From an uncultured virus (IMG/VR IMGVR_UViG_3300005600_000030) (Duplodnaviria > Heunggongvirae > Uroviricota > Caudoviricetes): a stretch of 20,000 nt of DNA. Shown piece after piece: positions 5,719 through 19,999 of the stretch; position 1 is the stretch's first letter; every line of letters starts with the position of its first letter. The translations under genes were made by a program, and so were the position numbers. The notes beneath the pieces are model-generated. The model made no database searches, was not told the DNA's origin, and was given only the letters and a program-made list of their open reading frames with translations. Where the stretch lies: positions 54,180-74,179 of the IMG/VR virus record IMGVR_UViG_3300005600_000030. One strand, written 5' to 3'.

Positions 5719-6046
5719 GAGGAATCACTTGTTTTTCATTGTGTAGGAATCGTTGTAGTTCAGTTGTAGACCCAATGAATATATTATTATTGGTCGTACC
5801 GTTAGGTAGTTCTTTTGGTTTGTCTAGTTGTTCGATTTGTTTCTTTGTTTTATTCAATGCCATCAGACGGTCAGAAACATCCGATACGTTTTTAATCATA
5901 CCGGACAGAACTTCGAACGCACGAGGATGTTCGGACTGTTTTGCCAGTTCCAACATCTCTTCGATACCATCTCTACCCTTTTCGATTAGGTCATAATAAA
6001 CGTCACGAGAAAACTCGTAATCGTCATCCATCTTTTTATCTGTCAT
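5702..6046 (-). CDS. gp16: Terminase small subunit
   Basis: 114 aa with DDYEFSR, SEHPRAFEV and NNNIFIGSTTELQ; overlaps the gp17 start. Confidence 0.95.
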   Translation of the reverse strand: MTDKKMDDDYEFSRDVYYDLIEKGRDGIEEMLELAKQSEHPRAFEVLSGMIKNVSDVSDRLMALNKTKKQIEQLDKPKELPNGTTNNNIFIGSTTELQRFLHNEKQVIPHDDSD

Positions 6047-6828
6047 TAAAATTCACTATCCAAGTATACAGTACTGAATCCATAGTCACTGTCAGCACCA
6101 ACCCCAACAGGTGTCGGTGTGGTTTGTAAACGTAGTTGGAAATCTTCCCTGTCACTATCACCCGATAAAATATATAGGTTATTATTAACTTCACGGATAA
6201 CACCACGAGTGGACATCGGGCCATAAAAGTTAATCTTCATGTTGAATGACAGAGTGTATATAATTGTTCTTCGGTCTCCGATAGAACCCTCATAACCATC
6301 ACTGAAAGAAACACCTGACAATATAATAGGTACATCTTCGGAGATTTCTGGGTGGTCTGTGTTGAATGGTTTGACCGATATCGTGTACTGAGGATTGAAG
6401 TAAGGTAGAATCTGTTCGACCATCTGCAATGCATCATCCTGAGACTTTGCGTAGATATTAACCTCAAACCCAATATCGTATGGTACAGAAGAATAGAATT
6501 GATTCTTTTTAGTCGCGTCACCACCTACCGTAGATGAGAATGAATTCATCTTGGGTAGTTGTCTCACTGGGTCATATGTCATAGAAGTAATCTCGAACGA
6601 CATACGAGGTAGTTTAATTGCAACCCTGCGTTCTGCTTCCTCACCATTAGCCATCTCACCTAATCTTTCGATGAAACTCTTCTTGGGGGCGTAGGACAAA
6701 GGTACCTTAACTTGAGAGATAGTCTCTCCCGAAGAGTTTTGACGAAGTACATAGATGTTATTAAACATGGAACCGAATACCGATACCGCAGTTCTTACCC
6801 TCTTATGATAAAACCAATTTCCTAACAT
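6046..6828 (-). CDS. gp15: Tail sheath stabiliser / tail completion protein
   Basis: 260 aa with FYH...FGSMFNNI, KVPLSYAP, LPRMSFEI, QMVEQILPYFNP and RRTIIYTL; TAATG coupling to both neighbours. Confidence 0.95.
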   Translation of the reverse strand: MLGNWFYHKRVRTAVSVFGSMFNNIYVLRQNSSGETISQVKVPLSYAPKKSFIERLGEMANGEEAERRVAIKLPRMSFEITSMTYDPVRQLPKMNSFSSTVGGDATKKNQFYSSVPYDIGFEVNIYAKSQDDALQMVEQILPYFNPQYTISVKPFNTDHPEISEDVPIILSGVSFSDGYEGSIGDRRTIIYTLSFNMKINFYGPMSTRGVIREVNNNLYILSGDSDREDFQLRLQTTPTPVGVGADSDYGFSTVYLDSEF

Positions 6829-8570
6829 TATGATATATCTCCGAATGGATTACTCTCGCTGAAATCAAGGAAGTCCCCTTCAAAGTCATCGAAGAAATCG
6901 TTCTGTGCAGCCAGTTGTATGTTCTGCAATTCCTGTACCAAAGAAGGTGCATAGGACGCATCCTCACTGACTACCGCATTGCTTGTATTAAACGTATGAT
7001 ATACACCATCGTCCGAACCAACGTGTACTAGGTACAACGTGTTGTCCGAGTCAGACCATTTCGCAACTTCACCTTTCATGGTGAATGTCCCTTGGTCTTG
7101 ACTTACGATAGTATTACGTTGATAATTACCACCGGCAGAAGGTGCATCAATAGTTACTATTGGTTCTTCATCATAGTATATACCAGATTCGGTAAGTGCT
7201 ATTGACTCTAGTATACCACCATCTGTGATTGTTGTGGTTGCAGTTGCACTTATTGCATTGAAGTGTAGTAGTTTCGCATCGTAAGTTACGTCATCTTCCC
7301 ACTCTATTGATTGTATGGTAAGAGTAGTATCATTACCTACAGTCGCATATCTAGGTTCGAGTATCTGTGCTTTACTACCGACTTGTACACGGAACTCATC
7401 AATGAATCCGTCCATTGCAGTCCAGTCTATACCATCAACAGTACGTGCAGCAGTTGCACCTACCGAGTAACCTTCATCACTCACCCAGTTGAAAGTGACA
7501 CCTGCGAGGGTCGCGTCCAGTTTTCTTACGAAGTCGAAGTAGATTACTAGGTTGTTAGTTCCTACACCCGCAATAAGAATATGGTGCCAAGTATCTTCTT
7601 CGAATAAGATTGAACTTCCGGTGAGATTTGTTACACCCCCACCTTGGTTATCTCCTCTACTATACACTAATTGACCCGTTGGGTCAACACCCCAGTAATA
7701 GGTATTTGTTAGGTCACCGTCTCCACCACCTGTTTTGAAAATAATATCTTGACCAGATGAAGGAAGGTTGTTAATATATACCCATGCTTCGATACTACCA
7801 TGCGCACCTGTCTGCGCATACGTACCCTCAGAACCTCGACCACGAGTCACGTTAAGTGACGCATTACCGAACTTAGAATTACTTCCTAAAGCTGCACCAA
7901 TAGTTAATGTGGGTGCAGTAACATAACCTCTACCTGTAGTCTGAACATCAAATCCAACTACCGCACCATCAACATCAATTCGTGATAATGCAGTTGCAGT
8001 AGATGCTGCGGGAGATTCCATAACCAGTTTGTACTGGTATGCAGATTCTTCTTCAACGTCATCGATACCTTCAATGTCGGTATCAAAGTCTTCGTCATTA
8101 TATTCGAATAATTCACATTGAAGTCTGAATGTAGGTAGTTGACTCAACTGATAGAACGGAGTCTCGGTCTCTACTTTATATATCTCAAAGATTGATTGTG
8201 ATAAAGGAAGATAGATTAAGTCGCCTTCACGAGGACGGAAGTTATATGCATCTAGTTTGTCACCGATGAGTTTCTTCCATCGTCTACGTGCGCATACAAA
8301 TGTTGCTTGGTCACGCAACTCCACACCAAACTTAGAGAAGAGGTCACCCTCTCCTCCAAACGCTTCTGCATTCTCGATATACATCTCGATTTTATATGCG
8401 TCAGAAAAATGCGAAGGAACGTCATCAAGGAATATTTTATCCTTGTTAACAATTTCTCGAGGTAAATAGTATACGTCCTGACCATAGAATTGTAAGGACT
8501 CTATTACTATGTCCTCATATAAATTCTGTTCAGCACGTACTGATTGTGAAATCCAAGGATTTGTTGCCAT
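6828..8570 (-). CDS. gp14: Neck / head-closure protein with an inserted LamG/ConA-like domain
   Basis: N-terminal gp14 motifs (GQDVYYLPR, IEMYIEN, SKFGVELRD, RPREGDLIYLP, PFYQL, CELFEY) and C-terminal DFSESNPFG; 580 aa because of the internal insertion. Confidence 0.92.
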   Translation of the reverse strand: MATNPWISQSVRAEQNLYEDIVIESLQFYGQDVYYLPREIVNKDKIFLDDVPSHFSDAYKIEMYIENAEAFGGEGDLFSKFGVELRDQATFVCARRRWKKLIGDKLDAYNFRPREGDLIYLPLSQSIFEIYKVETETPFYQLSQLPTFRLQCELFEYNDEDFDTDIEGIDDVEEESAYQYKLVMESPAASTATALSRIDVDGAVVGFDVQTTGRGYVTAPTLTIGAALGSNSKFGNASLNVTRGRGSEGTYAQTGAHGSIEAWVYINNLPSSGQDIIFKTGGGDGDLTNTYYWGVDPTGQLVYSRGDNQGGGVTNLTGSSILFEEDTWHHILIAGVGTNNLVIYFDFVRKLDATLAGVTFNWVSDEGYSVGATAARTVDGIDWTAMDGFIDEFRVQVGSKAQILEPRYATVGNDTTLTIQSIEWEDDVTYDAKLLHFNAISATATTTITDGGILESIALTESGIYYDEEPIVTIDAPSAGGNYQRNTIVSQDQGTFTMKGEVAKWSDSDNTLYLVHVGSDDGVYHTFNTSNAVVSEDASYAPSLVQELQNIQLAAQNDFFDDFEGDFLDFSESNPFGDIS

Positions 8571-9345: not shown

Positions 9346-12300
9346 TTAGTTAAGTAGTGTACCCGAAGAGTTATACACGTTAATTCTGTAATGTGAACCT
9401 TGTTGTCCATCTAGTGTGTCAGCATCTAATCCAGAACCCGCACCGTCCACGGTTTTGATTGCGGTCAATAGTTCGGTTGGAGTTGAGTACGTCTCTATAG
9501 TACTAATAACACCAGATGCAGAGTCATATGCAATACCCGAACCCGCAACCATTACCCCACGAATTGTGGATGTGTGGTTAGACAGACTTGACACAGTACC
9601 AGTAACATCACCAGTTAAGTTTGCAGTAATAGTACCCGCAGTAAAGTTACCAGAAATATCACGTGCAACAATTGTCGAACCAGTATTAGAAGAAGTCGCA
9701 GTAGTTGCAGAGTTCTGTACTTTACCTGAAGTCGAAATAGTTGCAAGTTTAGTGTCTGCGATATTCGCAGTTGCATTAATCATCGCATTGGTGATGACAT
9801 TGCTTGCAATACTTGTTGTTAAACTAACATTACCAGTACCATTGAATCCAATTGCGGCCGAAGTTATGTTTCCGGTCAACGAGAAGTTTCTAGAGTTTGC
9901 AAGTTGAACCGCAGAGGTCGCAGAAGTTGCATTACCTGACAGGTTACCATATGCAGTAGCAAACTGAACATCAGCAAGAGATGCAGAGTCAAAGTTAATA
10001 TCGAACTGAGAACTAGAGGAGTCAACGTTTGCGGCAGGATATGCGTCAAAGAATTTCCAACGTTCATCTGTTGCGTCACGCACAACACCCGCATACTTTA
10101 GGGGTTCGTTTTGTTGGTTGTAGTTACCAATAAGACCCAAGTCAAGATTAAGTTCTGTTGGGTGTGCACACCAAAGGTCTGCACTATCGTGACCAGACAA
10201 GTTAATAAACTGAATTGATAGACCATTACGTAAAGGTGCAGTTAGACCGTCAGTCTTCAGATTCCAAGTTGTTTGACCATTCGCAGAATCAAATCCTGTA
10301 CCATATCCATATAGTCCTGCAAGTGAACCATAAGACATCGCATCAGAGTCGGAAATACCCCACTCGATTGTGTCACCAACACCCGCAGAATCAACAGAGA
10401 CCATACGGACAAAGTAGAATACATCACTGTCACCCAGATACTTACCCTTGAAAGTCGCATCGTTTAGGCCACCACTGCTCTGATATGCAGTACCAACAGT
10501 ATCACCATCAAGTAACTGAAGTAAGTTACCACTAGTTGTAAGAGACTGCGAAAGAACTTCGGTTGTGACACCAAGAATGTTTAAGTTACCACCAACGGTC
10601 ACGTTTGCATCGAATCGTGCGTCTTGAGTTACACGAATAGTTTCCATCGTGTGGTCAATAACATCAACGTATACACAACCCAGTGCACTATCTTGAATCA
10701 GACAGATGCCCATATCGGTTGGATAGTAAGGATATTGTGGTGCAGTTGTAGTTAACCCGCCACCTACCGCAACGTGTACTTTTTCACCAACAGTCAAGTT
10801 CTGTGTATCAATATCAGCAACAAGACCACGAGTAGTGACGTAACCGATACTACCATTGGTGATATCATGTGTCGCAAGACCTACTGCGGAAGTTGCTTCT
10901 GTTGCATCGGCAGTAGCAATAGAAGGAACCGAACCCACTTCACCAGACAGATAAACAGGTGTACCATTTATGATAGTTGAACCAGAGTTGTTATAAACTC
11001 GAATCCATTCTTCTTGACCTACCTGTAGAGTAACGTCTTCGACATCATTCTTAACTACAAGTGCACCGTTCGCAGAATCGTAGTAAACCTGACCCTCTTC
11101 ATAGTATCCTGGCGATTTACCATCAAAGTGAATATGCGAACCGTAGATATCTGGCGCTACAAGATCGTGTGTAATAATCTTGTCTTGAACACGTAGATAC
11201 TCGAAGTGTTCTTTTTCTACGTTAACTAAGATACTACCTTGTGCACCGACAGTTAGTACTGTACCCAAGTGAGTAGGATAACCACTGTCAACAGATACTT
11301 CAGTTGTACTCCACTCACCCGCAGAGTCTTTTGATAGATATGCAGTTGCACCCGCAGTCATACCTGTAGTATTTACATCACGAACCAAACCAACTTTAGT
11401 TACATAACCATGCGCACCATCAGGAATGTCCATAGTCGCAAGACCGATAGGACTTGCAGTAGATGCGGCATCTGCCTTTGCAAGAGTTACTTGAGGGTGC
11501 GCACCATGCGCAACACCGGATATGTAAACTGCTTGACCGTTATTAATCTGTGCACCAGTCAAGTTATGAACATATATTAATGTTTCTTGACCTAAGTTGA
11601 TAGTTACATCTTCGACCAACTCATTGGTTGTCGGAATGAAAGACAGACCTTTCTGAGGGTCTGAATCATAATACAATAATCCACGCAGACTGTTAGGTGC
11701 GTCAGGAAGTTTGTCCAAGTGTAAACAAGAGATTTGTGCAGAGTCAACAGTTACCTTACCGAATACAACATCATCGGTTGTTCCGACAGACTGTGCAATT
11801 GCAACTTCACCATTGCTGATTGTTACTCCAGTTCCACCAGAGAAGTGTGCACGAGTCTCACTTGCACTTGGGCCAGTATAAACCAATACCCCTGTTGCAC
11901 TATCATATGCAAGACTTCCATCACCACTAGGATTCTGAACCGACAATACATTACGTGCACGTTGGGTAGTGAAGTAGAGGTTATCTCCCTCGGTTAATTG
12001 AGTAGTTGTTTTCTGACCAAAGTCAGAATCAAACCCACTATAAGGTTGTTCTTCATAGGAGATTATACCAGTAGTTGCATTATATGCGATACTACCTGTT
12101 GCACTGATTGCATGACGTGCAGTAGTGATAGTTCTATCGGAATCATAATAGAGGTTAGTCTGACCCTGTGTCAGGTCATCGGTGGTTTTATCCCCTAAGT
12201 CCGAATCGAAATAAGTTGTTTTGTAATAAAGATTAGACGAACCTTCAGTTAGGTCGTCTGTTGTTTTGGTTCCAAGTCTAGTATCGAACATACTCTCGCC

Positions 12301-12768
12301 ACGAGCAGTAGTCCAATATAAGTTAGTCCCCTCTGATAAATCAGAAGTAGAAAAAGAAGACAATCCAATACGTGCATTAAAAGAACCACCATCTGCGGTG
12401 GATATATTAAGAGTCGCACTTGCAGAATCAAAGGTGAATGCATTAACACCCGCAACAGTTGCACTGTCAATCGCAGTGATTTGACCTTGTGCATTAACTG
12501 TTAATACAGGAATTGAGGTTGATGAACCAACACTTCCGGCAGATACGCCAGTATTGGTGATAGAGATTTCCCCTGCGGTTTCGGTTATACCCGTACCGCC
12601 AGAAACCTCTCGAAGTGTTACTACTGAACTGGAAGATGCACTATCAATTGTTTTAAAAAAAAGACGACCATCATTTGTATTGATGGCCAGTTCGCCTAGT
12701 TCTATATTTGATGTCGTGGGTGCTTTACCCTTGACAGCACTTCGCTTCAGTCTAAAAGTTGTAGACAT
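9346..12768 (-). CDS. Long fibre-like virion protein (tail, collar or head fibre)
   Basis: 1140 aa, rich in G/S/T. Fibre-type N-terminus RLKRS...GELAINTNDGRLF, four TTDDLxEGxNLY-type repeats, a duplicated internal beta domain, and the C-terminal DGAGSGLDADTLDG motif seen in phage fibres. Confidence 0.75.
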   Translation of the reverse strand: MSTTFRLKRSAVKGKAPTTSNIELGELAINTNDGRLFFKTIDSASSSSVVTLREVSGGTGITETAGEISITNTGVSAGSVGSSTSIPVLTVNAQGQITAIDSATVAGVNAFTFDSASATLNISTADGGSFNARIGLSSFSTSDLSEGTNLYWTTARGESMFDTRLGTKTTDDLTEGSSNLYYKTTYFDSDLGDKTTDDLTQGQTNLYYDSDRTITTARHAISATGSIAYNATTGIISYEEQPYSGFDSDFGQKTTTQLTEGDNLYFTTQRARNVLSVQNPSGDGSLAYDSATGVLVYTGPSASETRAHFSGGTGVTISNGEVAIAQSVGTTDDVVFGKVTVDSAQISCLHLDKLPDAPNSLRGLLYYDSDPQKGLSFIPTTNELVEDVTINLGQETLIYVHNLTGAQINNGQAVYISGVAHGAHPQVTLAKADAASTASPIGLATMDIPDGAHGYVTKVGLVRDVNTTGMTAGATAYLSKDSAGEWSTTEVSVDSGYPTHLGTVLTVGAQGSILVNVEKEHFEYLRVQDKIITHDLVAPDIYGSHIHFDGKSPGYYEEGQVYYDSANGALVVKNDVEDVTLQVGQEEWIRVYNNSGSTIINGTPVYLSGEVGSVPSIATADATEATSAVGLATHDITNGSIGYVTTRGLVADIDTQNLTVGEKVHVAVGGGLTTTAPQYPYYPTDMGICLIQDSALGCVYVDVIDHTMETIRVTQDARFDANVTVGGNLNILGVTTEVLSQSLTTSGNLLQLLDGDTVGTAYQSSGGLNDATFKGKYLGDSDVFYFVRMVSVDSAGVGDTIEWGISDSDAMSYGSLAGLYGYGTGFDSANGQTTWNLKTDGLTAPLRNGLSIQFINLSGHDSADLWCAHPTELNLDLGLIGNYNQQNEPLKYAGVVRDATDERWKFFDAYPAANVDSSSSQFDINFDSASLADVQFATAYGNLSGNATSATSAVQLANSRNFSLTGNITSAAIGFNGTGNVSLTTSIASNVITNAMINATANIADTKLATISTSGKVQNSATTATSSNTGSTIVARDISGNFTAGTITANLTGDVTGTVSSLSNHTSTIRGVMVAGSGIAYDSASGVISTIETYSTPTELLTAIKTVDGAGSGLDADTLDGQQGSHYRINVYNSSGTLLN

Positions 12769-12795
12769 TTGTCAACCTCGTTCCAATATTGGATA

Positions 12796-12815
12796 ACCCC
12801 CTTAAAGAAGGGGGT
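12796..12815. other. Intergenic GC-rich hairpin; terminator or 5' stabiliser, orientation unclear
   Basis: ACCCCCTT-AAAG-AAGGGGGT, an 8-bp stem. There is no good U-tract on the coding strand; a T-rich run follows on the plus strand. Confidence 0.6.
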
Positions 12816-12828
12816 GATGTTTTATTAT

Positions 12829-14832
12829 TTAGTATGTTCCGCCATCAAGGGTCGAGATAGTCGCGAACCCAGATGTCACGGTGAATTGGTCTGAATCAAA
12901 AGACGCAACACCTTTGTTGGAATAACTTGCAATCTCGGCAGCGAATACAATAGTGTTATCACTGTCCTGTGAAGAACCGTATGTGATATCAAGTCCTTCA
13001 CCTGCGGCAAAGAAACTGTTACCAAGGTGGTCTTCGATATATTCACTAAGAACCACGCCATTACGGTAAATCTCACCACCAACATCTAAGTCTTTATTGG
13101 TGTTCCACTTGTCTCCTGCAACAGAGTATGTAATTGTCGCAGCCGCACCATTGACCGTAATACCTGCACCATTCGCAGCAGTCGCATCTGCGGCACTATC
13201 TGCAAGGACAAGATTAAGGTCATTAATCGACATAGTGGTCGAGTTAATGATTGTTTGAGTACCCTGTACAACAAGGTCACCCAGTACAAGAACCTGTCCA
13301 CCGTTTGAGTCTCCACTCTTAGGGTCAAGTACAAGTACATTAGTTGCAGTATTAGTAGATATCTTATTACCGTCAATACGGATGTTATCTACAGTCGCAC
13401 CAGTAAGTCCGGTAAGGTCAGTAACAGTCGCACCAAGTGCAACCGCATTATCGCCAATAGTTATATCATCATTGACGAGGTCAGCATTTGCAACAGACCC
13501 AGCCTTCAGACTTACATGACCATTCGAGATTGTGAAGTCAGTGTCTTCGAAAGACGCAATACCTTTGTTGTTACCGTCTGCATCTTCACCAGATACCGAG
13601 ATGTTAGTACCTGCATGGTTTACATTGATACCTTCTCCACCAAGGATAGATATCATGTGACCAGTGATAGGAACATTACCGTCATCGGTAGTGATTTGTT
13701 TAACTACCGCAGAATCAAGACTTACATCACCCGAGTTAAGTGTGAAGTCCGCAGACTGGAATTTGGCAACACCACGTTGGGTGTAAGTTGCATTCAATGC
13801 ATCGACAGTTATAGTCGAACCAGTTCCTTCTGTGACGATACCCTGTACTGAGTTACCACCGATAGTTAATGCATGGGTTACCGGAGTTACATCACCAGAA
13901 TCAGTGCTGATACCTTTTAGTACCGCATCATTCAGGGATACTTCACCCGAAGATACACCAAAGTCTGCACTAAGGAATTGTGCAACACCCTTCGAAGAAG
14001 TGGTCGCATCATCGATTGCATAATCAATCGTGTTAGTAGAACTGGTGTAAGTAAGAGTTAAACCATTACCTGTTGCGGTAAAGGTTACATCTGAATCTAG
14101 GAGACTGATTGGGTCACTGTTAATAGTCAGGTTGGTTGCAACACTAACTTCGGACGCAGCAGTCAATCGACCATCAGAGTCAACCGTGAATGATGGGATT
14201 GCGGTTTGTGAACCGTATGTTCCTGCGGTCACACCTGTGACATCTAAGTCAAAGGTGATTGTATTGGTACCACTGTCTGCAATGGTAGTAATCGCATTAC
14301 CACCGGCATAAGTGATAAACTCTATCGAAGGAATAAAGGTAAACGAACCATTATCCGCAGCTGCGGTTGCGAGGAATTCTGCGGCAAGTGCATCAACATA
14401 TGCCTTGTTCGCAGCATCAGAATCGTGAGTAGGAGTTGCGACACCATGAAGTCCCACATTACCAAAGTCAATTTCGTTACCGTTGGTGTCAAAGGTCAAT
14501 CCACTAACAGAGGTAATTGTGCCATCTGAAAGTGTGATGAAGTTGCTACTACCAACATTAATAGTATCAATTTTACTACTAGCGTCTACGATAAGTGCAC
14601 TGTTCGGGGTCAGTGTACCTTTCGCATGGTCTAACATACTGGTGAAGAATTTACCACCAATGACTTCGTGATTAACTGCATTACCTGCGATTTCAGTACC
14701 AGTACCAATATATAATCGGTCACCACCATTGGAACCATTATCGGTTAAGTATGAATATGCTAATTCACCTTGACCAAGTGTGGTCGGGTCTCCCGCAGTT
14801 CCCGATCTTTTTATTCTTAATAATGATGCCAT
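12829..14832 (-). CDS. Fibre-like virion structural protein
   Basis: 667 aa. N-terminus RIKRS...GELAYS...RLYIG resembles that of the 1140-aa protein; DAANKAYVD motif; four A-x4-[KR]G[VI]AxFxxx[DQ]F repeats; ends LDGGTY. Confidence 0.75.
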   Translation of the reverse strand: MASLLRIKRSGTAGDPTTLGQGELAYSYLTDNGSNGGDRLYIGTGTEIAGNAVNHEVIGGKFFTSMLDHAKGTLTPNSALIVDASSKIDTINVGSSNFITLSDGTITSVSGLTFDTNGNEIDFGNVGLHGVATPTHDSDAANKAYVDALAAEFLATAAADNGSFTFIPSIEFITYAGGNAITTIADSGTNTITFDLDVTGVTAGTYGSQTAIPSFTVDSDGRLTAASEVSVATNLTINSDPISLLDSDVTFTATGNGLTLTYTSSTNTIDYAIDDATTSSKGVAQFLSADFGVSSGEVSLNDAVLKGISTDSGDVTPVTHALTIGGNSVQGIVTEGTGSTITVDALNATYTQRGVAKFQSADFTLNSGDVSLDSAVVKQITTDDGNVPITGHMISILGGEGINVNHAGTNISVSGEDADGNNKGIASFEDTDFTISNGHVSLKAGSVANADLVNDDITIGDNAVALGATVTDLTGLTGATVDNIRIDGNKISTNTATNVLVLDPKSGDSNGGQVLVLGDLVVQGTQTIINSTTMSINDLNLVLADSAADATAANGAGITVNGAAATITYSVAGDKWNTNKDLDVGGEIYRNGVVLSEYIEDHLGNSFFAAGEGLDITYGSSQDSDNTIVFAAEIASYSNKGVASFDSDQFTVTSGFATISTLDGGTY

Positions 14833-15060: not shown

Positions 15061-15420
15061 TTACCTTGTTACCGAAGGTGTGACTTTAATCTTACCTTCC
15101 AGTATTCTTTCGATGATTGTATTTCCATCACTGTCATCAAATGACAGTTCTACGTCATAGACATATCGGTTTCTAGGGTTCAGTAAATCGGTTTCAGCAT
15201 TGGTGAGAGCGAGTACAAGAATACCGTCTTCGGGAGGATCTGTTATTGCAGTAGTGAAAGTTACGATATCGTTATCGTCAACTGAGTTGTAACTTCTTTT
15301 CATTTTCGCAGACGCAGAGTGTGCTGTCAAATCTTTTTTAGAACCATCAGTTTCCTGAAGGTGCAATTCGATTGCAACATCTGCGCCTTGGTCAATTGTA
15401 AAATCTTCGTAATCTGCCAT
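15061..15420 (-). CDS. Small Ig-like / BppU-N-like virion adaptor protein
   Basis: 119 aa with pattern TIDQGAD...DLT...RYVYDVEL...RILEGKIKVTPSVTR, which I recognise from beta-sandwich proteins that precede phage fibre genes; lies behind a late promoter. Confidence 0.7.
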   Translation of the reverse strand: MADYEDFTIDQGADVAIELHLQETDGSKKDLTAHSASAKMKRSYNSVDDNDIVTFTTAITDPPEDGILVLALTNAETDLLNPRNRYVYDVELSFDDSDGNTIIERILEGKIKVTPSVTR

Positions 15421-15494: not shown

Positions 15495-16190
15495 TTACTC
15501 TTCAGACATTATATCTTCGATTAAATCATCTCTGATAACCGAGGACAATTCCGAGGTATCGAAAATGAATGATACCGTCACTCTCCAACAGTCAGTTTTT
15601 GCTGAGTGGTAGAATAGTCGTTCGGGTTCTTCATAATGTCCAAAGTATGCGGCTTTACAGTTCCAACCTTGTTTATCCTTCATCTCCACGACTTCTTTGG
15701 TGGTAGGGTCAACATAATTAAATTGACCGTCTCCAGTCTCTGACCATGAGAATATTAGATTGTATGCGGGGGCGTTCGCATTATTGTGCCAAGAGATATA
15801 ACCGCCAGGTGGATAGAATGCGGTAAGTGCATTGTGTCTTACTCCCAACCATCCAAGAATCTCTTGTTGCATCCACGCAAGTTCCGCAGTCCTGTCTTTG
15901 CGGATAGATGGATGCACACCACGTTCATAAAACTCGTGGTCTTTTCTATGCACTCCAAGTTCGTACCCGTAGATAGAATCCGGAAACCCTTCGTGTCGAG
16001 TACCTTGGTCAAGAATTTCTTGTAGGTGAGTGTCACCTGCCCAGTAATGTCTATTACTTGCATCTTCTTGACATTGTAGGTGAAATGTCTCTTTGAAAGA
16101 ATCGACATCCTTCATCAAGAAGTCTCGATATCGATTCAATATTTTTAATAAGTCCCTATTCTTAACAGGGATGTCCTGCATATAACTCAT
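15495..16190 (-). CDS. 2OG-Fe(II) dioxygenase-like (DSBH) protein with an atypical HxN motif
   Basis: 231 aa with FYPPGGYISWHNN...G.F...FYHSA...RVTVSF, the usual spacing of first His, distal His and the 2OG-binding RxS/T-type strand. Confidence 0.7.
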   Translation of the reverse strand: MSYMQDIPVKNRDLLKILNRYRDFLMKDVDSFKETFHLQCQEDASNRHYWAGDTHLQEILDQGTRHEGFPDSIYGYELGVHRKDHEFYERGVHPSIRKDRTAELAWMQQEILGWLGVRHNALTAFYPPGGYISWHNNANAPAYNLIFSWSETGDGQFNYVDPTTKEVVEMKDKQGWNCKAAYFGHYEEPERLFYHSAKTDCWRVTVSFIFDTSELSSVIRDDLIEDIMSEE

Positions 16191-16921
16191 ATGATATATC
16201 CGTCTTTATCTAAACCACAAGAGTAGTGTCGAATAACAACAGGGCCAGTCGGTTTGGTGATTGCCCAGTTGAATGCGTTATAATAGTTCCAACGCAAATC
16301 GTCTTCAAGTATACCGTACTTGAGGTCTTTGTATTTATCTTCTCTTTCAGTCAACCACCAGAGACTAAACTGATCCCATGACTTGAGACTATCGATGTAT
16401 CCGTCAGGCCACCAATTACCATCCATTTGGTCTTTAGTGAGCATCTCCCAGTCAGACATAAACTCTCTTACGATAGGTTTAGTCATGTCGTATAGAGCGA
16501 CACCCCCACACAAGGTAAATTTAGTCTTACCTTCAGGTGTATCAAACTGACGTTCTGCATAGACATACTCGCGGTCATCTGTGAGTTCAGAGAATAGAAT
16601 ATCCTCTTCGCGTCTCTCCAGTTCATCGAAACATATCGCAATGTCTTCGTGTTCACATTCCATATCAACATCGAGGTACATAGTCAGGTCATAAGGAGAA
16701 CGAGCCATACCTTCGAGTTTAGCACGATAGTGACTACTGCACCATTCGACATTATCAAATAGTTCTCGGTGTTGTTCCTCGAACATCCATGGTTCACAAA
16801 ACAATGTAATCTTTGCGTCTTCATAATAATCTAGAATCGACTCTGCAAGGTTAATTGCATATCGATAGAAGTTTATCTTGTTAGATGCAACAAGTACATA
16901 ACCTCTACTCTTCTCCGACAT
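16187..16921 (-). CDS. GT-A fold (GT8-like) glycosyltransferase
   Basis: Motifs RAKL...SPYDLTMYLDVD (DxD), LCGGV, WDQFSL, RWNY and VIRHY. The ATG at 16921 is preferred because GAGG lies 9 nt upstream. ATGA overlap with the oxygenase gene. Confidence 0.8.
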   Translation of the reverse strand: MSEKSRGYVLVASNKINFYRYAINLAESILDYYEDAKITLFCEPWMFEEQHRELFDNVEWCSSHYRAKLEGMARSPYDLTMYLDVDMECEHEDIAICFDELERREEDILFSELTDDREYVYAERQFDTPEGKTKFTLCGGVALYDMTKPIVREFMSDWEMLTKDQMDGNWWPDGYIDSLKSWDQFSLWWLTEREDKYKDLKYGILEDDLRWNYYNAFNWAITKPTGPVVIRHYSCGLDKDGYII

Positions 16922-17369
16922 TCTCATTCGCCTCAAGTGCTTCTTGTAACAACATCATTGCATATAGGTTAACTTCAACTTTAGATTTTGCGCGTCTAAG
17001 TTTTGCCTTTAACTTCCGGTTCTTGGAATTTTTAATCTCTTCTGTCTCAAAGACTTCTAGTTTGTAGTTAAAAAGTTCTTCGAGTTTACGTGCACGTGCA
17101 TGTTCGGTGTCACGTTGTTTACGTTCTTCGATTTCTGCAGCTTTCCGAACTTTACGGTCTTCGGTATTTCGGTCAATAGATTCTTCACCTAGTGCACCCA
17201 CAACTTCAGCGAACATTTCATTTTCACTACCGTCTTTATTAAGACGACTCAATAACATCACTTGTTTGGTTTGACGACCAATATCATCTTCCATCTCAAG
17301 GATACAATTGACTTTGGATTTCTCAGGATTTTCCCAAAATGCATTATCCATCCATCGTTTAAAACTCAT
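16905..17369 (-). CDS. Hypothetical protein, possibly a fibre-assembly chaperone
   Basis: 154 aa with an AGGAG RBS. N-terminus NAFWENPEKSKVNC loosely recalls tail-fibre assembly proteins; the C-terminal half is charged and helical. Confidence 0.6.
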   Translation of the reverse strand: MSFKRWMDNAFWENPEKSKVNCILEMEDDIGRQTKQVMLLSRLNKDGSENEMFAEVVGALGEESIDRNTEDRKVRKAAEIEERKQRDTEHARARKLEELFNYKLEVFETEEIKNSKNRKLKAKLRRAKSKVEVNLYAMMLLQEALEANENVGEE

Positions 17370-17428: not shown

Positions 17429-17436
17429 GGGTTTTT
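17415..17436. terminator. Hairpin overlapping the -35 box, terminator-like in the plus direction
   Basis: ACCCTTG-TTGT-CAAGGGT followed by TTTT on the plus strand, directly after the repeat-gene stop. Confidence 0.45.
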
Positions 17437-19999
17437 ATGCAGTTCTTACATAAAGTGTATAGGTTTCAATAACCTCAGTTCCCGAGTCTAGTGTGGTACC
17501 AACATAGTTCCCTACAAAGTCACGAGAATAATTGCCGATAAACGACCTAGAATAATTACCTGCAAAGTTGCGAGAATAATTTCCTGAGAAGTCTCCGGTG
17601 AAATCAGTTACGCGATTACGTGTATAGTCCGCAGAATACGCAGAAGTTCTAGTTCTACTAAATGTTGATACACGAGTTCTAGTAGAAGTACGAGTAGACG
17701 TTCGTGTATACTCACCAATGAAGTCTCGGCTGTAGTTACCAGTGAAGTCCCCAACATAGTTGGATACACGAACCCTTGTATATTCTCCTGCAAAGTCACG
17801 TGAGTAGTTCCCAACAAAGTTACCAGTAAAGTCTTGCAGAGAGTCACGCGTATATTCACCAAGGAATCCACGAGTATAGTTGCCAGTAAAATCACCTACG
17901 AAAGTTCTGGTATAGTTACCCGCAAAGTCTCTTGCGAAGTTACCAGTGTACTCTCCAATAAAGTCGGTTTGTCGGTCTCTTGAATATTCACCTGCAAAGT
18001 CTCGGGTGTAATCGCCAACATAATTACCGGCAAAGTCTCTGGCGTAGTTACCTGCAAAGTTTCTACTGTAATTACCTACGAAATTACCTGCGAAATCTAC
18101 TGTACTGTTGCGAGTGTATTCACCTGCAAAGTCTCGGGTATAATCACCCACATAATTTCCACCAAAGTCTCTGGTATAGTTTCCTGCAAAGTTGCGAGAA
18201 TAATTACCAACATAGTTTGCAATATAATCGGTTATACGAGTTCTTGCATAGTTACCAGTGAAGTCACGAGTATAGTCACCCACAAAGTCACGAGTAGAAG
18301 TTCTGGTTGATACTCTAGTGTATTCACCTGCAAAGTCACGTGAGTAATTACCTACAAAGTTACCTGCAAAAACTGCGGTACTATTACGAGTATAGTTACC
18401 AGTAAATGTTCTTGAGTAGTTACCCACATAGTTTGCAATATAATCGGTTATACGAGTTCTAGCGTATGCAGACACACGATTCCTTGAGTAAGTAGAAATA
18501 CGGTCACGGGTGTACGCAGAGAAACGAGTACGTGTTGATGTACGTGCGTATTCTCCAATGAAATCCCCGACATAATTTCCTGCGAAATCTCGAGTGTAAT
18601 CTCCGGTATAGTTCCCTACAAAGGTACGTGCATAGTTTCCAATAAAGTTACCCGCATAGTTTGTCACTCGGTCACGTGTAAAGTTACCAGTAAAGGTCTG
18701 TAATCTGTCACGAGTGTACGCAGAAAATCTTGTTCTACTTGATACTCTAGTATATGCAGAAGAACGGCTGCGAGTGTAGTCCGCAGCGTAAGCAGATACT
18801 CTAGTCCTTGTAGAGTCAGTAATACGAGTACGAGCATATGCAGAATAACGAGTACGTGTTGATATACGTGCGTATGCCGAGTTACGAGTTCTTGAGTAAT
18901 TACCAGCGAACGCACGAGAATAATCACCTATGAAGTTTCCTGCATAGTATCCGGTACGTGTATAATCACCGACAAATTCTCCTGCATAATAACCTAATCT
19001 AGTATAGTTACCAGTAAAGTCACCTGCATAGTATCCGGTACGGGTATAATACACTGTTGCCGTAGAAACACGAGTAGAGTTGCGCGTATAGTCACCTACG
19101 TAATACAGTGTACGAGTATAGTTACCAACATAATACAATGTGCGAGTGTAGTCGCCTACGTAATATAATGTACGAGTATAGTTGCCTGTGTAATATAACG
19201 TAGACGCACGTGCACGAGTATAAGTTCCGGTCGCAGTACTAGTACGAGTAGAAACCCTAGTATAATCTCCGGTCGCAGTACTAGTACGAGTGGAGGCCGG
19301 CAAGACACGTGAATAGTTACCGACATAGTAAATCGTTTGGCCTTCGACTGTACCACCTGCGCGTGAACGAGTATATTCTGCGGTACCATCAGATGCACCA
19401 ACATAGTTACCTAAGTAGTATAATGTCGGGGTTCGAACTCTCGTGTAATCAAGTGTACGAGTATAGTTACCTATGTAACTTGTTGTTCCAGAACGAGTAC
19501 GAGTATATGCGGATGTTTTTGTGTAATATTCAATCGCATATGGATCAGACGGTGGACTTCTTGCGAATAACAAAACACGAGTATAGTTTCCGACATACGT
19601 CCCACCAGAAATACTGTATCTGACATAGTATCCGGTACGTGTGTAGTTCCCTGTATAGTACGCAATTGCAGTGCTAACTCGAGTGTAGTCGGCAGTAGGC
19701 GTAAAGTTACCAACATAGTACAAGGTACGAGTGTAATTACCAGTAAAGTCACCTGCATAGTACAATGTTCTGGTGTAGTTTCCGGTATATGTTACACCTT
19801 CGGCACGTGCACGAGTATAATCTCCGGTCGCAGTACGAGTACGAGTATAGGTACCAGTTGCGGTGCGGGTTCGCGTATAGTCACCTACTGCCGTGCGGGT
19901 GCGGGTATAGTTACCCGTAAAGTCACCACTGTATGAAACTACACGACTATATGACAATGTAAGAGTCGAAGTCCTTGTACTGATTCTAGTGTAGTCAAA
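17435..19999 (-). CDS. Giant low-complexity Y/T/R/G repeat protein, 5'-truncated (more than 850 aa)
   Basis: The frame stays open beyond the ORF-track TTG at 19957 to the window edge (FDYTRISTRTSTLTLSYSR...). Built from GNYTR, FAGN and YSRD units; non-repetitive C-terminal cap TTLDSGTEVIETYTLYVRTA. Confidence 0.9.
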   Translation of the reverse strand, partial: FDYTRISTRTSTLTLSYSRVVSYSGDFTGNYTRTRTAVGDYTRTRTATGTYTRTRTATGDYTRARAEGVTYTGNYTRTLYYAGDFTGNYTRTLYYVGNFTPTADYTRVSTAIAYYTGNYTRTGYYVRYSISGGTYVGNYTRVLLFARSPPSDPYAIEYYTKTSAYTRTRSGTTSYIGNYTRTLDYTRVRTPTLYYLGNYVGASDGTAEYTRSRAGGTVEGQTIYYVGNYSRVLPASTRTSTATGDYTRVSTRTSTATGTYTRARASTLYYTGNYTRTLYYVGDYTRTLYYVGNYTRTLYYVGDYTRNSTRVSTATVYYTRTGYYAGDFTGNYTRLGYYAGEFVGDYTRTGYYAGNFIGDYSRAFAGNYSRTRNSAYARISTRTRYSAYARTRITDSTRTRVSAYAADYTRSRSSAYTRVSSRTRFSAYTRDRLQTFTGNFTRDRVTNYAGNFIGNYARTFVGNYTGDYTRDFAGNYVGDFIGEYARTSTRTRFSAYTRDRISTYSRNRVSAYARTRITDYIANYVGNYSRTFTGNYTRNSTAVFAGNFVGNYSRDFAGEYTRVSTRTSTRDFVGDYTRDFTGNYARTRITDYIANYVGNYSRNFAGNYTRDFGGNYVGDYTRDFAGEYTRNSTVDFAGNFVGNYSRNFAGNYARDFAGNYVGDYTRDFAGEYSRDRQTDFIGEYTGNFARDFAGNYTRTFVGDFTGNYTRGFLGEYTRDSLQDFTGNFVGNYSRDFAGEYTRVRVSNYVGDFTGNYSRDFIGEYTRTSTRTSTRTRVSTFSRTRTSAYSADYTRNRVTDFTGDFSGNYSRNFAGNYSRSFIGNYSRDFVGNYVGTTLDSGTEVIETYTLYVRTA

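What the first reader, a model, noticed from the sequence alone, without database searches (positions are those of the whole stretch)
9346..14832. Strong enrichment of a D-S-[A/D] tripeptide in surface virion proteins, a possible modification sequon
Manual count: the 1140-aa fibre has 21 DS dipeptides, 19 of them followed by A (13) or D (6). Rough composition predicts only one or two DS[AD]. The 667-aa fibre has 10 DS (5 DSD, 2 DSA). gp18 has DSD, DSA and DSA; gp15 has two DSD near its C-terminus; gp14 and the 119-aa protein have one DSD each. The large terminase has none and the portal one. Sites lie in unrelated local contexts, so tandem duplication does not explain them. Known: Bacteroidetes O-glycosylation uses D-[S/T]-[A/I/L/V/M/T]. 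Inference: this is a selected tag for Ser modification, perhaps by the nearby GT, or a cation-binding turn.
Basis: partly seen in the sequence, partly recalled or inferred. Interest (0 to 1): 0.8.

Follow-up and report, generated by a model that had tools for sequence, protein, structure and literature searches.

The report
Asp-Ser-Ala/Asp motif on phage fibres
A three-residue motif, Asp-Ser-(Ala or Asp), is far too common on the tail, neck and fibre proteins of one group of uncultured marine T4-like phages and nearly absent from their other proteins, which points to a tag for chemical modification of the virus particle, although no modification has been shown.

Summary
The counts are right and far beyond chance. 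Fibre 1 (1140 aa) has 19 DS[AD] against 1.39 expected (0 of 2000 shuffles reach it). Fibre 2 (667 aa) has 7 against 1.13. The window is the end of a 74-kb contig of an uncultured marine T4-like myovirus.

The excess is a trait of the clade. In 120 homologues there are 2250 sites against 247 expected. It also occurs in the gp15 C-terminal tail, gp14, the outer part of gp18 and a 119-aa protein. Terminase, portal, tube and the enzymes lack it.

Same-composition permutations (DAS, SDA, DDS and others) are 3 to 20 times rarer. DTA, DTD and ESA are depleted. Homologous domains in other phage types, and a cyanophage, carry no excess. Sites arise at many independent alignment columns. In the model they lie in loops.

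A glycogenin-like GT-A gene lies just upstream in the same late operon.

Best reading, at 0.4: a Ser-specific surface sequon for covalent modification. This is unproven. The main rival is a structural strand-end/turn cap. The motif does not fit the Bacteroidota sequon.

The parts
9346..12768 (-). Fibre 1, 1140 aa, next to gp13 (the genome position of T4 wac). It has 19 DS[AD] sites: DSA42, 101, 114, 289, 342, 481, 564, 693, 793, 827, 861, 927, 1082 and DSD188, 209, 247, 368, 780, 807.
   Evidence: Counts. Shuffles. Homologues. AF2 model m707aaaf1a8f3. Internal domain duplication.
12829..14832 (-). Fibre 2, 667 aa, with 7 DS[AD] sites (DSD137, 218, 246, 623, 646; DSA373, 545).
   Evidence: Homologues in clade loci: 160 observed against 29.2 expected in 29 distinct ORFs.
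15061..15420 (-). 119-aa protein (matches PHROG 'L-shaped tail fiber protein assembly') with DSD96. The clade has two recurrent motif columns.
   Evidence: Clade totals: 33 against 3.0 and 35 against 8.1.
15495..16190 (-). p231, a protein with no Pfam family. H135, H195 and R203 are invariant. There are weak leads to 2OG-oxygenase / Asp-Pro-hydroxylase-like proteins. It is the third gene of the cassette.
16187..16936 (-). GT249, a putative GT-A (GT8/glycogenin-like) nucleotide-sugar transferase with invariant D89-x-D91. Its start overlaps the end of p154 and its stop overlaps the start of p231.
16905..17369 (-). p154, a small Lys/Glu-rich protein. It is the first gene of the conserved cassette p154-GT249-p231.
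17435..19999 (-). p840, the C-terminal part of a giant fibre-like protein cut by the end of the contig (1615 aa in the sister locus L005). It has 0 DS[AD], so it is not enriched here.
   Evidence: Clade: 57 against 13.9 but 72 against 59.
6046..6828 (-). gp15 tail-sheath stabiliser with DSD224 and DSD246. The clade has three conserved motif positions in the C-terminal tail (GLxDSDVY, SADSDYGF, C-terminal LDSA). D246, S247 and D248 are invariant.
   Evidence: Clade: 107 against 7.4 in 41 ORFs.
6828..8570 (-). gp14 neck protein with a Laminin_G_3 insertion; DSD507 (column held by 29 of 37 clade sequences).
2209..4017 (-). gp18 sheath with DSD102, DSA157 and DSA253. All lie between the domain III N-terminal piece (32-84) and the conserved sheath core (319-584).
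   Evidence: 14 motif columns in 22 sequences, all at query positions 60-334.

Best explanation
D-S-[A/D] is a short, Ser-specific surface motif. It has been selected, in number more than in position, on the tail, neck and fibre proteins of one clade of uncultured marine T4-like myoviruses. It is avoided in their cytoplasmic (non-virion) proteins.

The most likely mechanism is that it is an acceptor sequon. A phage-encoded late enzyme would recognise the exposed Asp-Ser-(small or acidic) tripeptide in loops of folded or folding virion proteins in the cytoplasm and modify the Ser hydroxyl covalently, most plausibly with a sugar. The candidate enzyme is the glycogenin-like GT-A transferase encoded three genes upstream of fibre 2 in the same late operon (p154-GT249-p231). 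Sugar donors may come from the phage's own nucleotide-sugar genes.

Shown here: the enrichment, its specificity, its clade restriction, its turnover, its loop location and the GT-A fold of the neighbouring gene. Inferred: that Ser is modified, that the modification is a glycan, and that GT249 is the enzyme.
For: 1. Size and specificity.
- 120 fibre-1 homologues: 2250 DS[AD] against 247.3 expected, median ratio 9.0.
- DSA is the most over-represented of all tripeptides (10.1x); DSD is 7.9x. By contrast DTA is 0.31x, DTD 0.09x, ESA 0.02x, NSD 0.10x, DSL 0.11x and DSG 1.0x.
- Where D-x-[AD] is kept in homologues, x is Ser in 852 cases and Thr in 7. Ordinary Ser positions go to Thr in 18% of cases. 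Asp goes to Asn in 2 cases against 852 kept, compared with 11.6% at ordinary Asp positions. Ala and Asp interchange at about 9%, against 2.3% for D to A at ordinary Asp positions (D is not among the eight commonest replacements of ordinary Ala, the last of them at 2.4%).

2. The fold does not require the motif.
- Roseobacter phage CRP-6 gp61 is 40% identical over residues 556-990 and has 0 DS[AD]. The equivalents of the window's sites there are DKA, AAI, TSS, DQS, VLG and DTS; the sites at 807, 827 and 927 fall in gaps.
- 20 distinct fibre-domain homologues in 23 loci that are not T4-like: 8 against 13.8. All 271 ORFs there: 49 against 56.7.
- Cyanophage S-RIM2: giant structural proteins 0 against 2.07 and 3 against 1.93; gp15 0, with SADADDDFGF where the clade has SADSDYGF.

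3. The motif occurs in unrelated virion proteins, with turnover.
- gp15 107 against 7.4, gp14 79 against 14.4, gp18 63 against 16.1, p119 33 against 3.0. This was repeated in 79 further loci.
- Distinct alignment columns holding the motif in six families other than fibre 1: DSA 55 and DSD 57, against DAS 15, SDA 17, SAD 32, ASD 14, DDS 11, SDD 13, DTA 10 and DTD 11.
- There are 878 de-duplicated contexts with only weak flank preferences.

4. Exposure.
- All 7 sites in confident parts of the AF2 model have Ser in a loop (background loop fraction 0.53).
- DSD807 and DSA827 lie in a loop that CRP-6 lacks.
- The gp18 sites lie outside the conserved core.

5. Avoidance elsewhere.
- Own contig, non-virion ORFs: 3 against 9.2, with DSA 0 in 17,316 aa.
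- gp17 0 against 8.1, gp19 0 against 2.4, portal 2 against 6.3.
- GT249 1 against 11.6, p231 2 against 7.4.

6. A candidate enzyme.
- GT249 has an invariant DxD motif.
- Its AF2 model has pLDDT 78. The best Foldseek hits are human glycogenin-1 (E 6.7e-6), TarS and SpsA.
- 6 of 12 family members hit Pfam GT2 (best 4e-4) and 1 of 12 hits GT8.
- The cassette stands upstream of the fibres in 15 of the 19 T4-like loci that cover a fibre flank. Of the other four, two (L010, L042) carry other GT8-like genes in the same slot, one of them with a radical-SAM/SPASM gene. The other two (L043, L054) carry 2OG oxygenases beside the fibres, L043 also a GT2.
- In 50,697 phage records GT249 matches only Phage C48C1.
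- The contig also encodes a nucleotide-sugar dehydrogenase, an SDR epimerase/dehydratase and a sugar-phosphate nucleotidyltransferase-like protein.
Against: - No chemical evidence of any modification exists.
- Motif and cassette are both traits of one clade, so their co-occurrence amounts to one evolutionary event and not to many independent ones.
- Phage C48C1 carries the cassette (GT249 65% identical). Its excess is much weaker: virion proteins 40 against 19.2; DSA 11 is no higher than SDA 20 or SAD 15; most DSD sites lie in tandem repeats; gp15 keeps 1 of the 3 positions.
- The giant fibre directly upstream of the cassette, which earlier notes of this scan took as the cassette's likely target, is not enriched (window 0 sites; clade 72 against 59).
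- Part of the signal looks structural. The residue before the motif is hydrophobic in 18 of 26 window sites. Gly is at +4 in 7 of 26. In the model four sites (289, 368, 564, 1082) are strand-D|S-A/D-x-x|strand hairpins. In phages outside the clade the Asp of the 368/564 hairpin is kept, as YD[STN][TDG].
- All Pfam matches of GT249 are below the curated cut-offs. GT-A enzymes more often act on glycans or lipids than on proteins.
- The major capsid protein is not enriched (1 against 0.41), so there would be no general glycan coat.
- The depletion in non-virion proteins rests on p = 0.024 in one contig and on related sequences elsewhere.
Confidence: 0.4

Rival explanations
1. A purely structural motif. 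Asp ends a beta-strand and caps the following turn (an Asx-type turn), Ser and a small or helix-favouring residue fill the first loop positions, and nothing is modified. The clade's fibres and exposed domains are built from many such hairpins, and the clade has drifted to one preferred turn sequence.
For: - In the window, the residue at -1 is hydrophobic in 18 of 26 sites (7.5 expected) and the residue at -3 in 15 of 26. Gly is at +4 in 7 of 26 (2.9 expected).
- In the AF2 model the sites at 289, 368, 564 and 1082 are strand-D|S-A/D-x-x|strand hairpins, and the others lie in inter-strand loops.
- At the variable sites, relatives carry the turn-formers NNS, NSS, NSG and NTG.
- Homologues outside the clade keep the Asp at the 368/564 hairpin. 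CRP-6 has D-K-A-x-G there.
Against: - The same folds exist without the motif in CRP-6, in 20 homologues from loci that are not T4-like, and in a cyanophage.
- Turn logic would tolerate Asn for Asp and Thr for Ser. Here these replacements are almost excluded: 2 and 7 cases against 852.
- Ala and Asp are interchangeable at position 3, while Gly, Ser, Asn and Glu are not favoured.
- Over 878 contexts the flank preferences are weak: -1 hydrophobic 0.44 against 0.28.
- Some sites are not hairpins, for example the extreme C-terminal LDSA of gp15.
- The motif is absent from the beta-rich tube protein and from the portal.
Confidence: 0.3
2. A non-covalent recognition motif. Exposed D-S-[A/D] would be a docking site for a shared partner, either another virion or assembly protein (for example the 119-aa protein or p154) or an environmental ligand or ion, and not an enzyme substrate.
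For: - The motif occurs on several unrelated tail, neck and fibre proteins, in exposed loops and tails.
- The gp15 tail carries three copies close together near the neck.
- Specificity for Asp and Ser is strict.
Against: - Docking sites are normally fixed in position. Here many sites are singletons at new columns: 14 columns in 22 gp18 sequences and 18 columns in 37 gp14 sequences.
- Cation binding is hard to reconcile with Ala being as frequent as Asp at position 3 (443 against 435).
- No candidate reader protein has been identified.
Confidence: 0.12
3. An artefact of composition, tandem duplication, a DNA-level signal or shared ancestry, with no selection on the tripeptide.
For: - Five of the 19 sites in fibre 1 lie in repeats or in a duplicated domain.
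- Clade-wide counts are inflated by the relatedness of the sequences.
- In Phage C48C1 most sites are in tandem repeats.
Against: - 0 of 2000 composition-preserving shuffles reach the observed count.
- Same-composition permutations are 3 to 20 times rarer.
- Counting distinct alignment columns in place of sequences still gives a 3- to 5-fold excess.
- 12 different codings are used for the 19 sites, with both serine codon families.
- There are 878 distinct contexts.
Confidence: 0.03

Closest known systems
General O-glycosylation sequon of Bacteroidota, D-(S/T)-(A/I/L/V/M/T)
   Same: It is a three-residue motif with an obligatory Asp before the acceptor Ser. Glu before the acceptor is not tolerated in B. 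fragilis (PMC12871550, passages read); here ESA is 0.02x. Ala is accepted at position 3. In that phylum the motif is enriched over chance in the target class of proteins (PMC12871550, legend of Fig. 2; PMC8550257, abstract).
   Different: Here Thr is avoided, aliphatic third residues are avoided and Asp is as common as Ala at position 3. That system transfers a preassembled glycan in the periplasm to non-cytoplasmic proteins only. Phage tails and fibres are assembled in the cytoplasm (established knowledge). The host of this clade is unknown.
Virion glycosylation in mycobacteriophages (Che8, Rita; Freeman et al. 2023)
   Same: Phage-encoded glycosyltransferases are linked to glycans on virion proteins. 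I saw this only as a passage in PMC11256854 that cites the original; the original paper is not held.
   Different: In that case the targets named in the passage are major capsid proteins, and no sequon is given there. Here the capsid protein is not enriched, the candidate targets are tail, neck and fibre proteins, and a strict tripeptide stands out. The phage family and host are different.
Glycogenin and other GT8 retaining GT-A transferases
   Same: GT249 has a DxD motif and a GT-A fold whose best structural matches are glycogenin-1 chains. Glycogenin is a protein-directed transferase (recalled).
   Different: TM-scores are only 0.36-0.46 and identity is 13-16%. Pfam scores are below the cut-offs. 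Glycogenin glucosylates its own Tyr (recalled). Here Phe is as common as Tyr before the motif (FDS 612, YDS 453), so the residue at -1 cannot be the acceptor.
Hydroxylase-plus-glycosyltransferase pathways acting in the cytoplasm or on virus fibres (Skp1 hydroxyproline glycosylation; mimivirus collagen hydroxylysine glucosylation); recalled, not read here
   Same: A GT-A gene is paired with an oxygenase-like gene next to fibre genes. Variant loci pair collagen-repeat fibres with true 2OG-Fe(II) oxygenases and a GT2.
   Different: p231 matches no Pfam family. It has Asn where the iron-binding Asp would be in the one weak alignment (hhalign probability 2.6%). The enriched motif holds neither Pro nor Lys.
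Beta-hairpin loops capped by Asp or Asn (Asx turn, type I turn with G1 bulge); textbook structural motif, recalled
   Same: Asp is at the strand end, small polar residues are in the loop, and Gly closes the loop at several sites.
   Different: Such loops normally accept Asn, Thr, Gly and Pro, and they occur in all beta-rich proteins. Here the sequence is nearly fixed and restricted to one clade.

Membership tests
Bacteroidota O-glycosylation sequon D-(S/T)-(A/I/L/V/M/T) | Asp immediately before the acceptor; Glu is not accepted | tested here: met
   DSA 10.1x and DSD 7.9x against ESA 0.02x and ESD 0.86x. The first residue is D in 852 cases and E in 4 where x-S-[AD] is kept.
Bacteroidota O-glycosylation sequon D-(S/T)-(A/I/L/V/M/T) | The acceptor may be Ser or Thr | tested here: not met
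   DTA 0.31x and DTD 0.09x. Thr in 7 cases against Ser in 852.
Bacteroidota O-glycosylation sequon D-(S/T)-(A/I/L/V/M/T) | Third residue hydrophobic (L, I, V, T, A, S, M) | tested here: not met
   Only Ala fits. DSL 0.11x, DSV 0.59x, DSI 0.75x, DST 0.58x. Asp, which is not in that sequon, makes up half of the sites.
Bacteroidota O-glycosylation sequon D-(S/T)-(A/I/L/V/M/T) | Targets are non-cytoplasmic proteins, glycosylated in the periplasm | not tested
   No signal-peptide prediction was run. Cytoplasmic assembly of tailed-phage particles is established knowledge and argues against membership.
GT-A glycosyltransferase, GT8-like (for GT249) | DxD metal / nucleotide-sugar binding motif | tested here: met
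   D89 and D91 are invariant in 12 sequences.
GT-A glycosyltransferase, GT8-like (for GT249) | GT-A Rossmann-like fold | tested here: met
   AF2 pLDDT 78.1. 177 PDB matches at E <= 0.001, headed by glycogenin-1, TarS and SpsA; but TMq is only 0.36-0.46.
GT-A glycosyltransferase, GT8-like (for GT249) | Reaches the curated Pfam or NCBIfam score of a GT family | tested here: not met
   Window protein: GT2 at E 0.11, 12.8 bits against a cut-off of 23.3. Best family member 4e-4. No NCBIfam match.
GT-A glycosyltransferase, GT8-like (for GT249) | Transfers a sugar to a protein Ser | not testable with these tools
   This needs an enzyme assay or mass spectrometry.
2OG-Fe(II) oxygenase / prolyl or aspartyl hydroxylase (for p231) | HxD/E...H iron triad and a 2OG-binding Arg or Lys in a double-stranded beta-helix | tested here: inconclusive
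   H135, H195 and R203 are invariant, but the sequence reads H-N-N. No Pfam hit in 13 members or in 27 distant representatives. Atlas leads score 0.87, below the 0.9 line. hhalign probability 2.6%.
Structural Asx-capped beta-hairpin loop | Asp or Asn at the strand end, Gly closing the loop, and free exchange among D/N and S/T | tested here: inconclusive
   The geometry is met at 4 modelled hairpins, and Gly is at +4 in 7 of 26 sites. The expected exchangeability is not met.
DxDxDG-type calcium-binding loop | Alternate acidic or polar ligands at positions 1, 3 and 5, and Gly at 6 | tested here: not met
   Position 3 is Ala in 443 of 878 contexts. There is no preference for D, N or S at +4.

The most novel reading that the evidence does not exclude
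D-S-[A/D] is the acceptor sequon of a phage-encoded cytoplasmic protein O-glycosylation system (a glycogenin-like GT-A with a helical partner and an oxygenase-like partner). This system coats the sheath surface, neck and fibres of a widespread clade of marine T4-like phages. Sites are gained and lost as in the glycan shields of animal viruses, and the phage's own cytoplasmic proteins avoid the tripeptide. It would be the first sequon-directed O-glycosylation of a phage tail apparatus, and it would give a substrate to an orphan enzyme trio seen in hundreds of phage loci.
Probability: 0.28. Interest if true: 0.85.

Novelty: new variant of a known kind. Interest (0 to 1): 0.7.

Why it matters
If the Ser is modified, this motif would allow modification sites on phage tails and fibres to be predicted from sequence alone. 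It would explain what a conserved cassette of a glycogenin-like transferase and an oxygenase-like protein does in many uncultured marine T4-like phages. It would also extend phage virion glycosylation, so far reported for mycobacteriophage capsids, to the host-recognition apparatus of abundant ocean viruses, where it could affect host range, particle stability and stickiness.

Four full-text searches found no paper describing an O-glycosylation sequon on phage virion proteins.

If the motif proves to be purely structural, it remains an unusually strict, clade-specific turn signature. That would still be useful for recognising exposed loops in these proteins.

Tried and rejected
- DNA-level explanation (a GANTC methylation site made by GAY-TCN): rejected. 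About a third of the motif serines use AGY codons, and GANTC density in the fibre genes is unremarkable (6.4 and 3.5 per kb against 4.3 for the contig).
- Sequence search of both fibres against PDB chains: no match at E <= 1.
- BLAST of the two fibres against each other and themselves listed only weak fibre 1 to fibre 2 matches. My filter hid self-matches. The internal duplication was then shown directly.
- A 121-sequence MAFFT alignment of fibre homologues was too gappy to use (7613 columns, after a time-out). It was replaced by pairwise alignments.
- Profile of GT249 against PDB sequences: only chance-level hits to ribosomal protein eS25 (E 0.011). Profile of p231: nothing.
- p231: 635 relatives at E <= 0.001 in the 1.84-billion-protein library, but 0 of 27 scanned have a meaningful Pfam family. 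hhalign against two oxygenase-type proteins gave probabilities of 2.6% and 0.8%.
- Complex prediction of GT249 with the gp15 tail (residues 215-260): no verdict, score 0.02 against a mark of 0.32, controls not run. This is evidence neither for nor against binding.
- Earlier-findings look-ups by words and by place gave nothing.
- A search for 'C48C1' found no paper on that phage. The Freeman 2023 paper is not held.
- A general 'surface virion protein' rule was rejected in part. The major capsid protein (1 against 0.41), gp13 (5 against 7.1) and the giant upstream fibre p840 (72 against 59 in the larger sample) are not enriched.

Full report
WHAT THE WINDOW IS. All long ORFs lie on the minus strand. 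Pfam and PHROGs identify a T4-type late module. In transcription order it reads: a giant fibre-like protein cut by the contig end (p840); three small genes (154, 249 and 231 aa); a 119-aa protein similar to fibre-assembly proteins; a 74-aa ORF; a 667-aa and an 1140-aa fibre protein with no Pfam family; then gp13, gp14, gp15, gp16, gp17, gp18, gp19 and gp20. The window is the last 20 kb of a 74,179-bp contig (41% G+C) that also carries T4-type replication genes, gp21-gp23 and nucleotide-sugar genes. There is no near relative among 50,697 phage records at DNA level. The closest record by gp15 is the 156-kb Phage C48C1 (61% identity); cyanophages follow at about 40%.

- With 2000 composition-preserving shuffles per protein, fibre 1 has 19 DS[AD] against 1.39 expected (0 of 2000 reach it). 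Fibre 2 has 7 against 1.13 (p = 0.0005).
- The other 89 ORFs of the contig sum to 12 against 12.0. That total hides a split. gp18, gp15, gp14, p119 and p840 pooled give 7 against 2.0 (p = 0.0034). The 80 non-virion ORFs give 3 against 9.2, with no DSA in 17,316 residues (p = 0.024).
- The sites use 12 different 9-nt codings and both serine codon families, so the signal is in the protein and not in the DNA.
Three DSD lie in an obvious tandem repeat, and two sites are equivalent positions of a duplicated 170-aa domain.

THE MOTIF IS A CLADE TRAIT WITH STRICT CHEMISTRY.
- Of 1883 relatives of fibre 1 at E <= 0.001, the best 120 were listed. They hold 2250 DS[AD] against 247.3 expected (median ratio 9.0, range 1.7-15.2).
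- Among all tripeptides DSA ranks first (10.1x). DSD is 7.9x, FDS 11x and YDS 8.4x. DTA (0.31x), DTD (0.09x), ESA (0.02x), NSD (0.10x) and DSL (0.11x) are depleted. DSG is neutral.
- Four of the window's sites are kept in 69-89% of aligned homologues (342, 368, 481, 693). The others are kept in 4-61%.
- Conditional counts show how narrow the motif is. The middle residue is Ser 852 times and Thr 7 times. The first residue is Asp 852 times, Asn 2 and Glu 4. Ala and Asp at the third position replace each other at about 9%, against 2.3% for D to A at ordinary Asp positions.

THE FOLD DOES NOT NEED THE MOTIF.
- The tail-fibre protein gp61 of Roseobacter phage CRP-6 aligns at 40% identity over residues 556-990 and at 32% over residues 282-527. 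It has no DS[AD] at all. The window's sites correspond there to DKA, AAI, TSS, DQS, VLG and DTS, or fall in gaps.
- In 70 viral loci found with the fibre, 50 fibre ORFs in T4-like loci carry 672 sites against 83.9 expected.
- The 20 distinct fibre-domain homologues in 23 loci that are not T4-like carry 8 against 13.8. All 271 ORFs of those loci carry 49 against 56.7.
- Cyanophage S-RIM2 shows no excess in its giant structural proteins or in gp15.

THE MOTIF SITS ON SEVERAL UNRELATED VIRION PROTEINS AND TURNS OVER.
- Enriched in the T4-like loci: gp15 107 against 7.4, gp14 79 against 14.4, gp18 63 against 16.1, p119 33 against 3.0, fibre 2 38 against 6.7.
- Not enriched: gp17 0 against 8.1, gp19 0 against 2.4, gp20 2 against 6.3, gp13 5 against 7.1.
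- A second, larger sample of 79 loci, found through GT249, repeats this. It adds GT249 1 against 11.6 and p231 2 against 7.4. It also shows that the giant upstream fibre p840 is not enriched (72 against 59).
- Same-composition permutations are the cleanest control. In fibre-1 homologues DSA is 426 against DAS 80, SDA 59, SAD 65 and ASD 15; DSD is 229 against DDS 10 and SDD 9. In gp18, DSA 29 and DSD 28 stand against 0-12 for each permutation.
- To reduce the effect of relatedness I counted distinct alignment columns in six families. DSA has 55 and DSD 57, against 11-32 for the permutations, 10-11 for DTA and DTD, and 5 for ESA.
- gp18 has 14 motif columns in 22 sequences, 8 of them singletons, and all outside the conserved sheath core. 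gp14 has 18 columns.
- gp15 carries three conserved copies in its C-terminal tail, the last being the C-terminus itself.
- Over both samples there are 878 de-duplicated contexts. Ala and Asp are equal at position 3, and flank preferences are weak.

STRUCTURE.
- An AF2 model of fibre 1 built from 42 sequences is poor overall (pLDDT 60) but good in three globular regions.
- All 7 sites in confident blocks have the Ser in a loop, against a loop fraction of 0.53.
- Four sites (two of them in low-confidence parts) are hairpins in which Asp ends a strand and S-A/D-x-x forms the loop.
- Two sites lie in a loop that CRP-6 lacks.
- So the sites are probably exposed. That fits both a turn motif and an accessible sequon.
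- The duplicated domain resembles capsid decoration proteins and the base of the phi29 head fibre.

THE NEARBY GT.
- The 249-aa protein has an invariant DxD motif.
- It has recurrent sub-threshold Pfam GT2 and GT8 matches and atlas leads to nucleotide-diphospho-sugar transferases.
- Its AF2 model (pLDDT 78) has glycogenin-1, TarS and SpsA as best PDB matches.
- Together with p154 and p231 it stands upstream of the fibres in 15 of the 19 T4-like loci that cover a fibre flank. Two others carry different GT8-like genes in the same slot, one with a radical-SAM/SPASM gene. The last two have 2OG-Fe(II) oxygenases beside the fibres, one also with a GT2 and collagen-repeat fibres.
- GT249 matches only Phage C48C1 among 50,697 phage records.
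- p231 stays unassigned. It has invariant His, His and Arg, but only weak oxygenase leads.
- Earlier AI notes of this scan on other genomes describe the same trio and say that its substrate is unknown. They are leads, not evidence. I confirmed the glycogenin-like fold myself, and the oxygenase-like character only weakly.

WEIGHING THE READINGS.
- A purely structural motif explains the hairpin geometry. It does not explain the near-exclusion of Asn and Thr, the interchange of Ala and Asp, the restriction to one clade while the folds are shared, the spread over unrelated proteins with many new positions, or the avoidance in non-virion proteins.
- A sequon read by a clade-specific enzyme explains all of these. 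Bacteroidota offer a precedent for a D-S-x O-glycosylation motif (PMC8550257, abstract; PMC12871550, passages), and mycobacteriophages offer one for glycosylated virions (PMC11256854, passage).
- Against the sequon reading: no chemistry is known. Motif and cassette are one clade's traits. C48C1 has the cassette but only a weak, repeat-borne excess. The capsid protein and the fibre next to the cassette are not enriched. The motif fails two of the three residue rules of the Bacteroidota sequon.
- My weights are 0.4 for the modification sequon, 0.3 for the structural cap, 0.12 for a non-covalent docking or ligand motif and 0.03 for artefact. The rest is unassigned.

VERDICT. The interpretation as a selected Ser tag is the best available one but is unproven. 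The analogy with the Bacteroidota sequon is functional at most and does not amount to membership.

Noticed in passing
window 9346-12768 (residues about 355-530 and 556-710): The duplicated 170-aa domain of fibre 1 resembles capsid decoration or cement proteins and the base of the phi29 head fibre gp8.5 (Foldseek E 1.7e-4 to 8e-4, target TM 0.5-0.68). The gene sits where T4 has wac, next to gp13. In siphovirus CRP-6 the homologue follows the portal gene. It may therefore be a head or neck fibre and not a tail fibre.
   Followed up: partly
window 17435-19999: The 840-aa ORF is cut by the end of the contig. The sister locus L005 shows a 1615-aa protein. Unlike the downstream fibres it carries no DS[AD] excess.
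   Followed up: partly
L042:4586-5674 (minus strand) and L042:5677-6450: In one related T4-like locus, a radical-SAM/SPASM enzyme (Pfam E 5e-14) and a GT8 glycosyltransferase (24.7 bits, just above the cut-off) replace the usual cassette in the slot before the fibre genes.
   Followed up: no
L043:15494-24360: Another related locus has three collagen-repeat fibres with endosialidase-chaperone (Peptidase_S74) ends. They are followed by two 2OG-Fe(II) oxygenases and a 575-aa GT2. This is a hydroxylase-plus-transferase set next to collagen-like fibres.
   Followed up: no
contig 6503-8200 (L001:6503-8200, minus strand): A 565-aa ATP-grasp protein matches cyanophycin synthetase models (E 6e-71, far below the equivalog cut-off). 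This is unusual cargo for a phage.
   Followed up: no
window 6828-8570: gp14 is 580 aa, about twice the length of most clade homologues (289-300 aa). It carries a Laminin_G_3 (concanavalin-like) domain at residues 257-395.
   Followed up: no
contig 33565-34701 (L002:15565-16701, minus strand) and contig 5169-5861: A 378-aa protein has a Pfam DruA (Druantia) match (E 5e-9), and a 230-aa protein has a sulfotransferase match (E 1e-9). Both lie among early or middle genes.
   Followed up: no
window 6046-6828, residues 215-260: The C-terminal tail of gp15, beyond the Pfam gp15 domain, ends in the clade with the motif itself as the last residues (LDSA). The window's copy has LDSEF there.
   Followed up: partly
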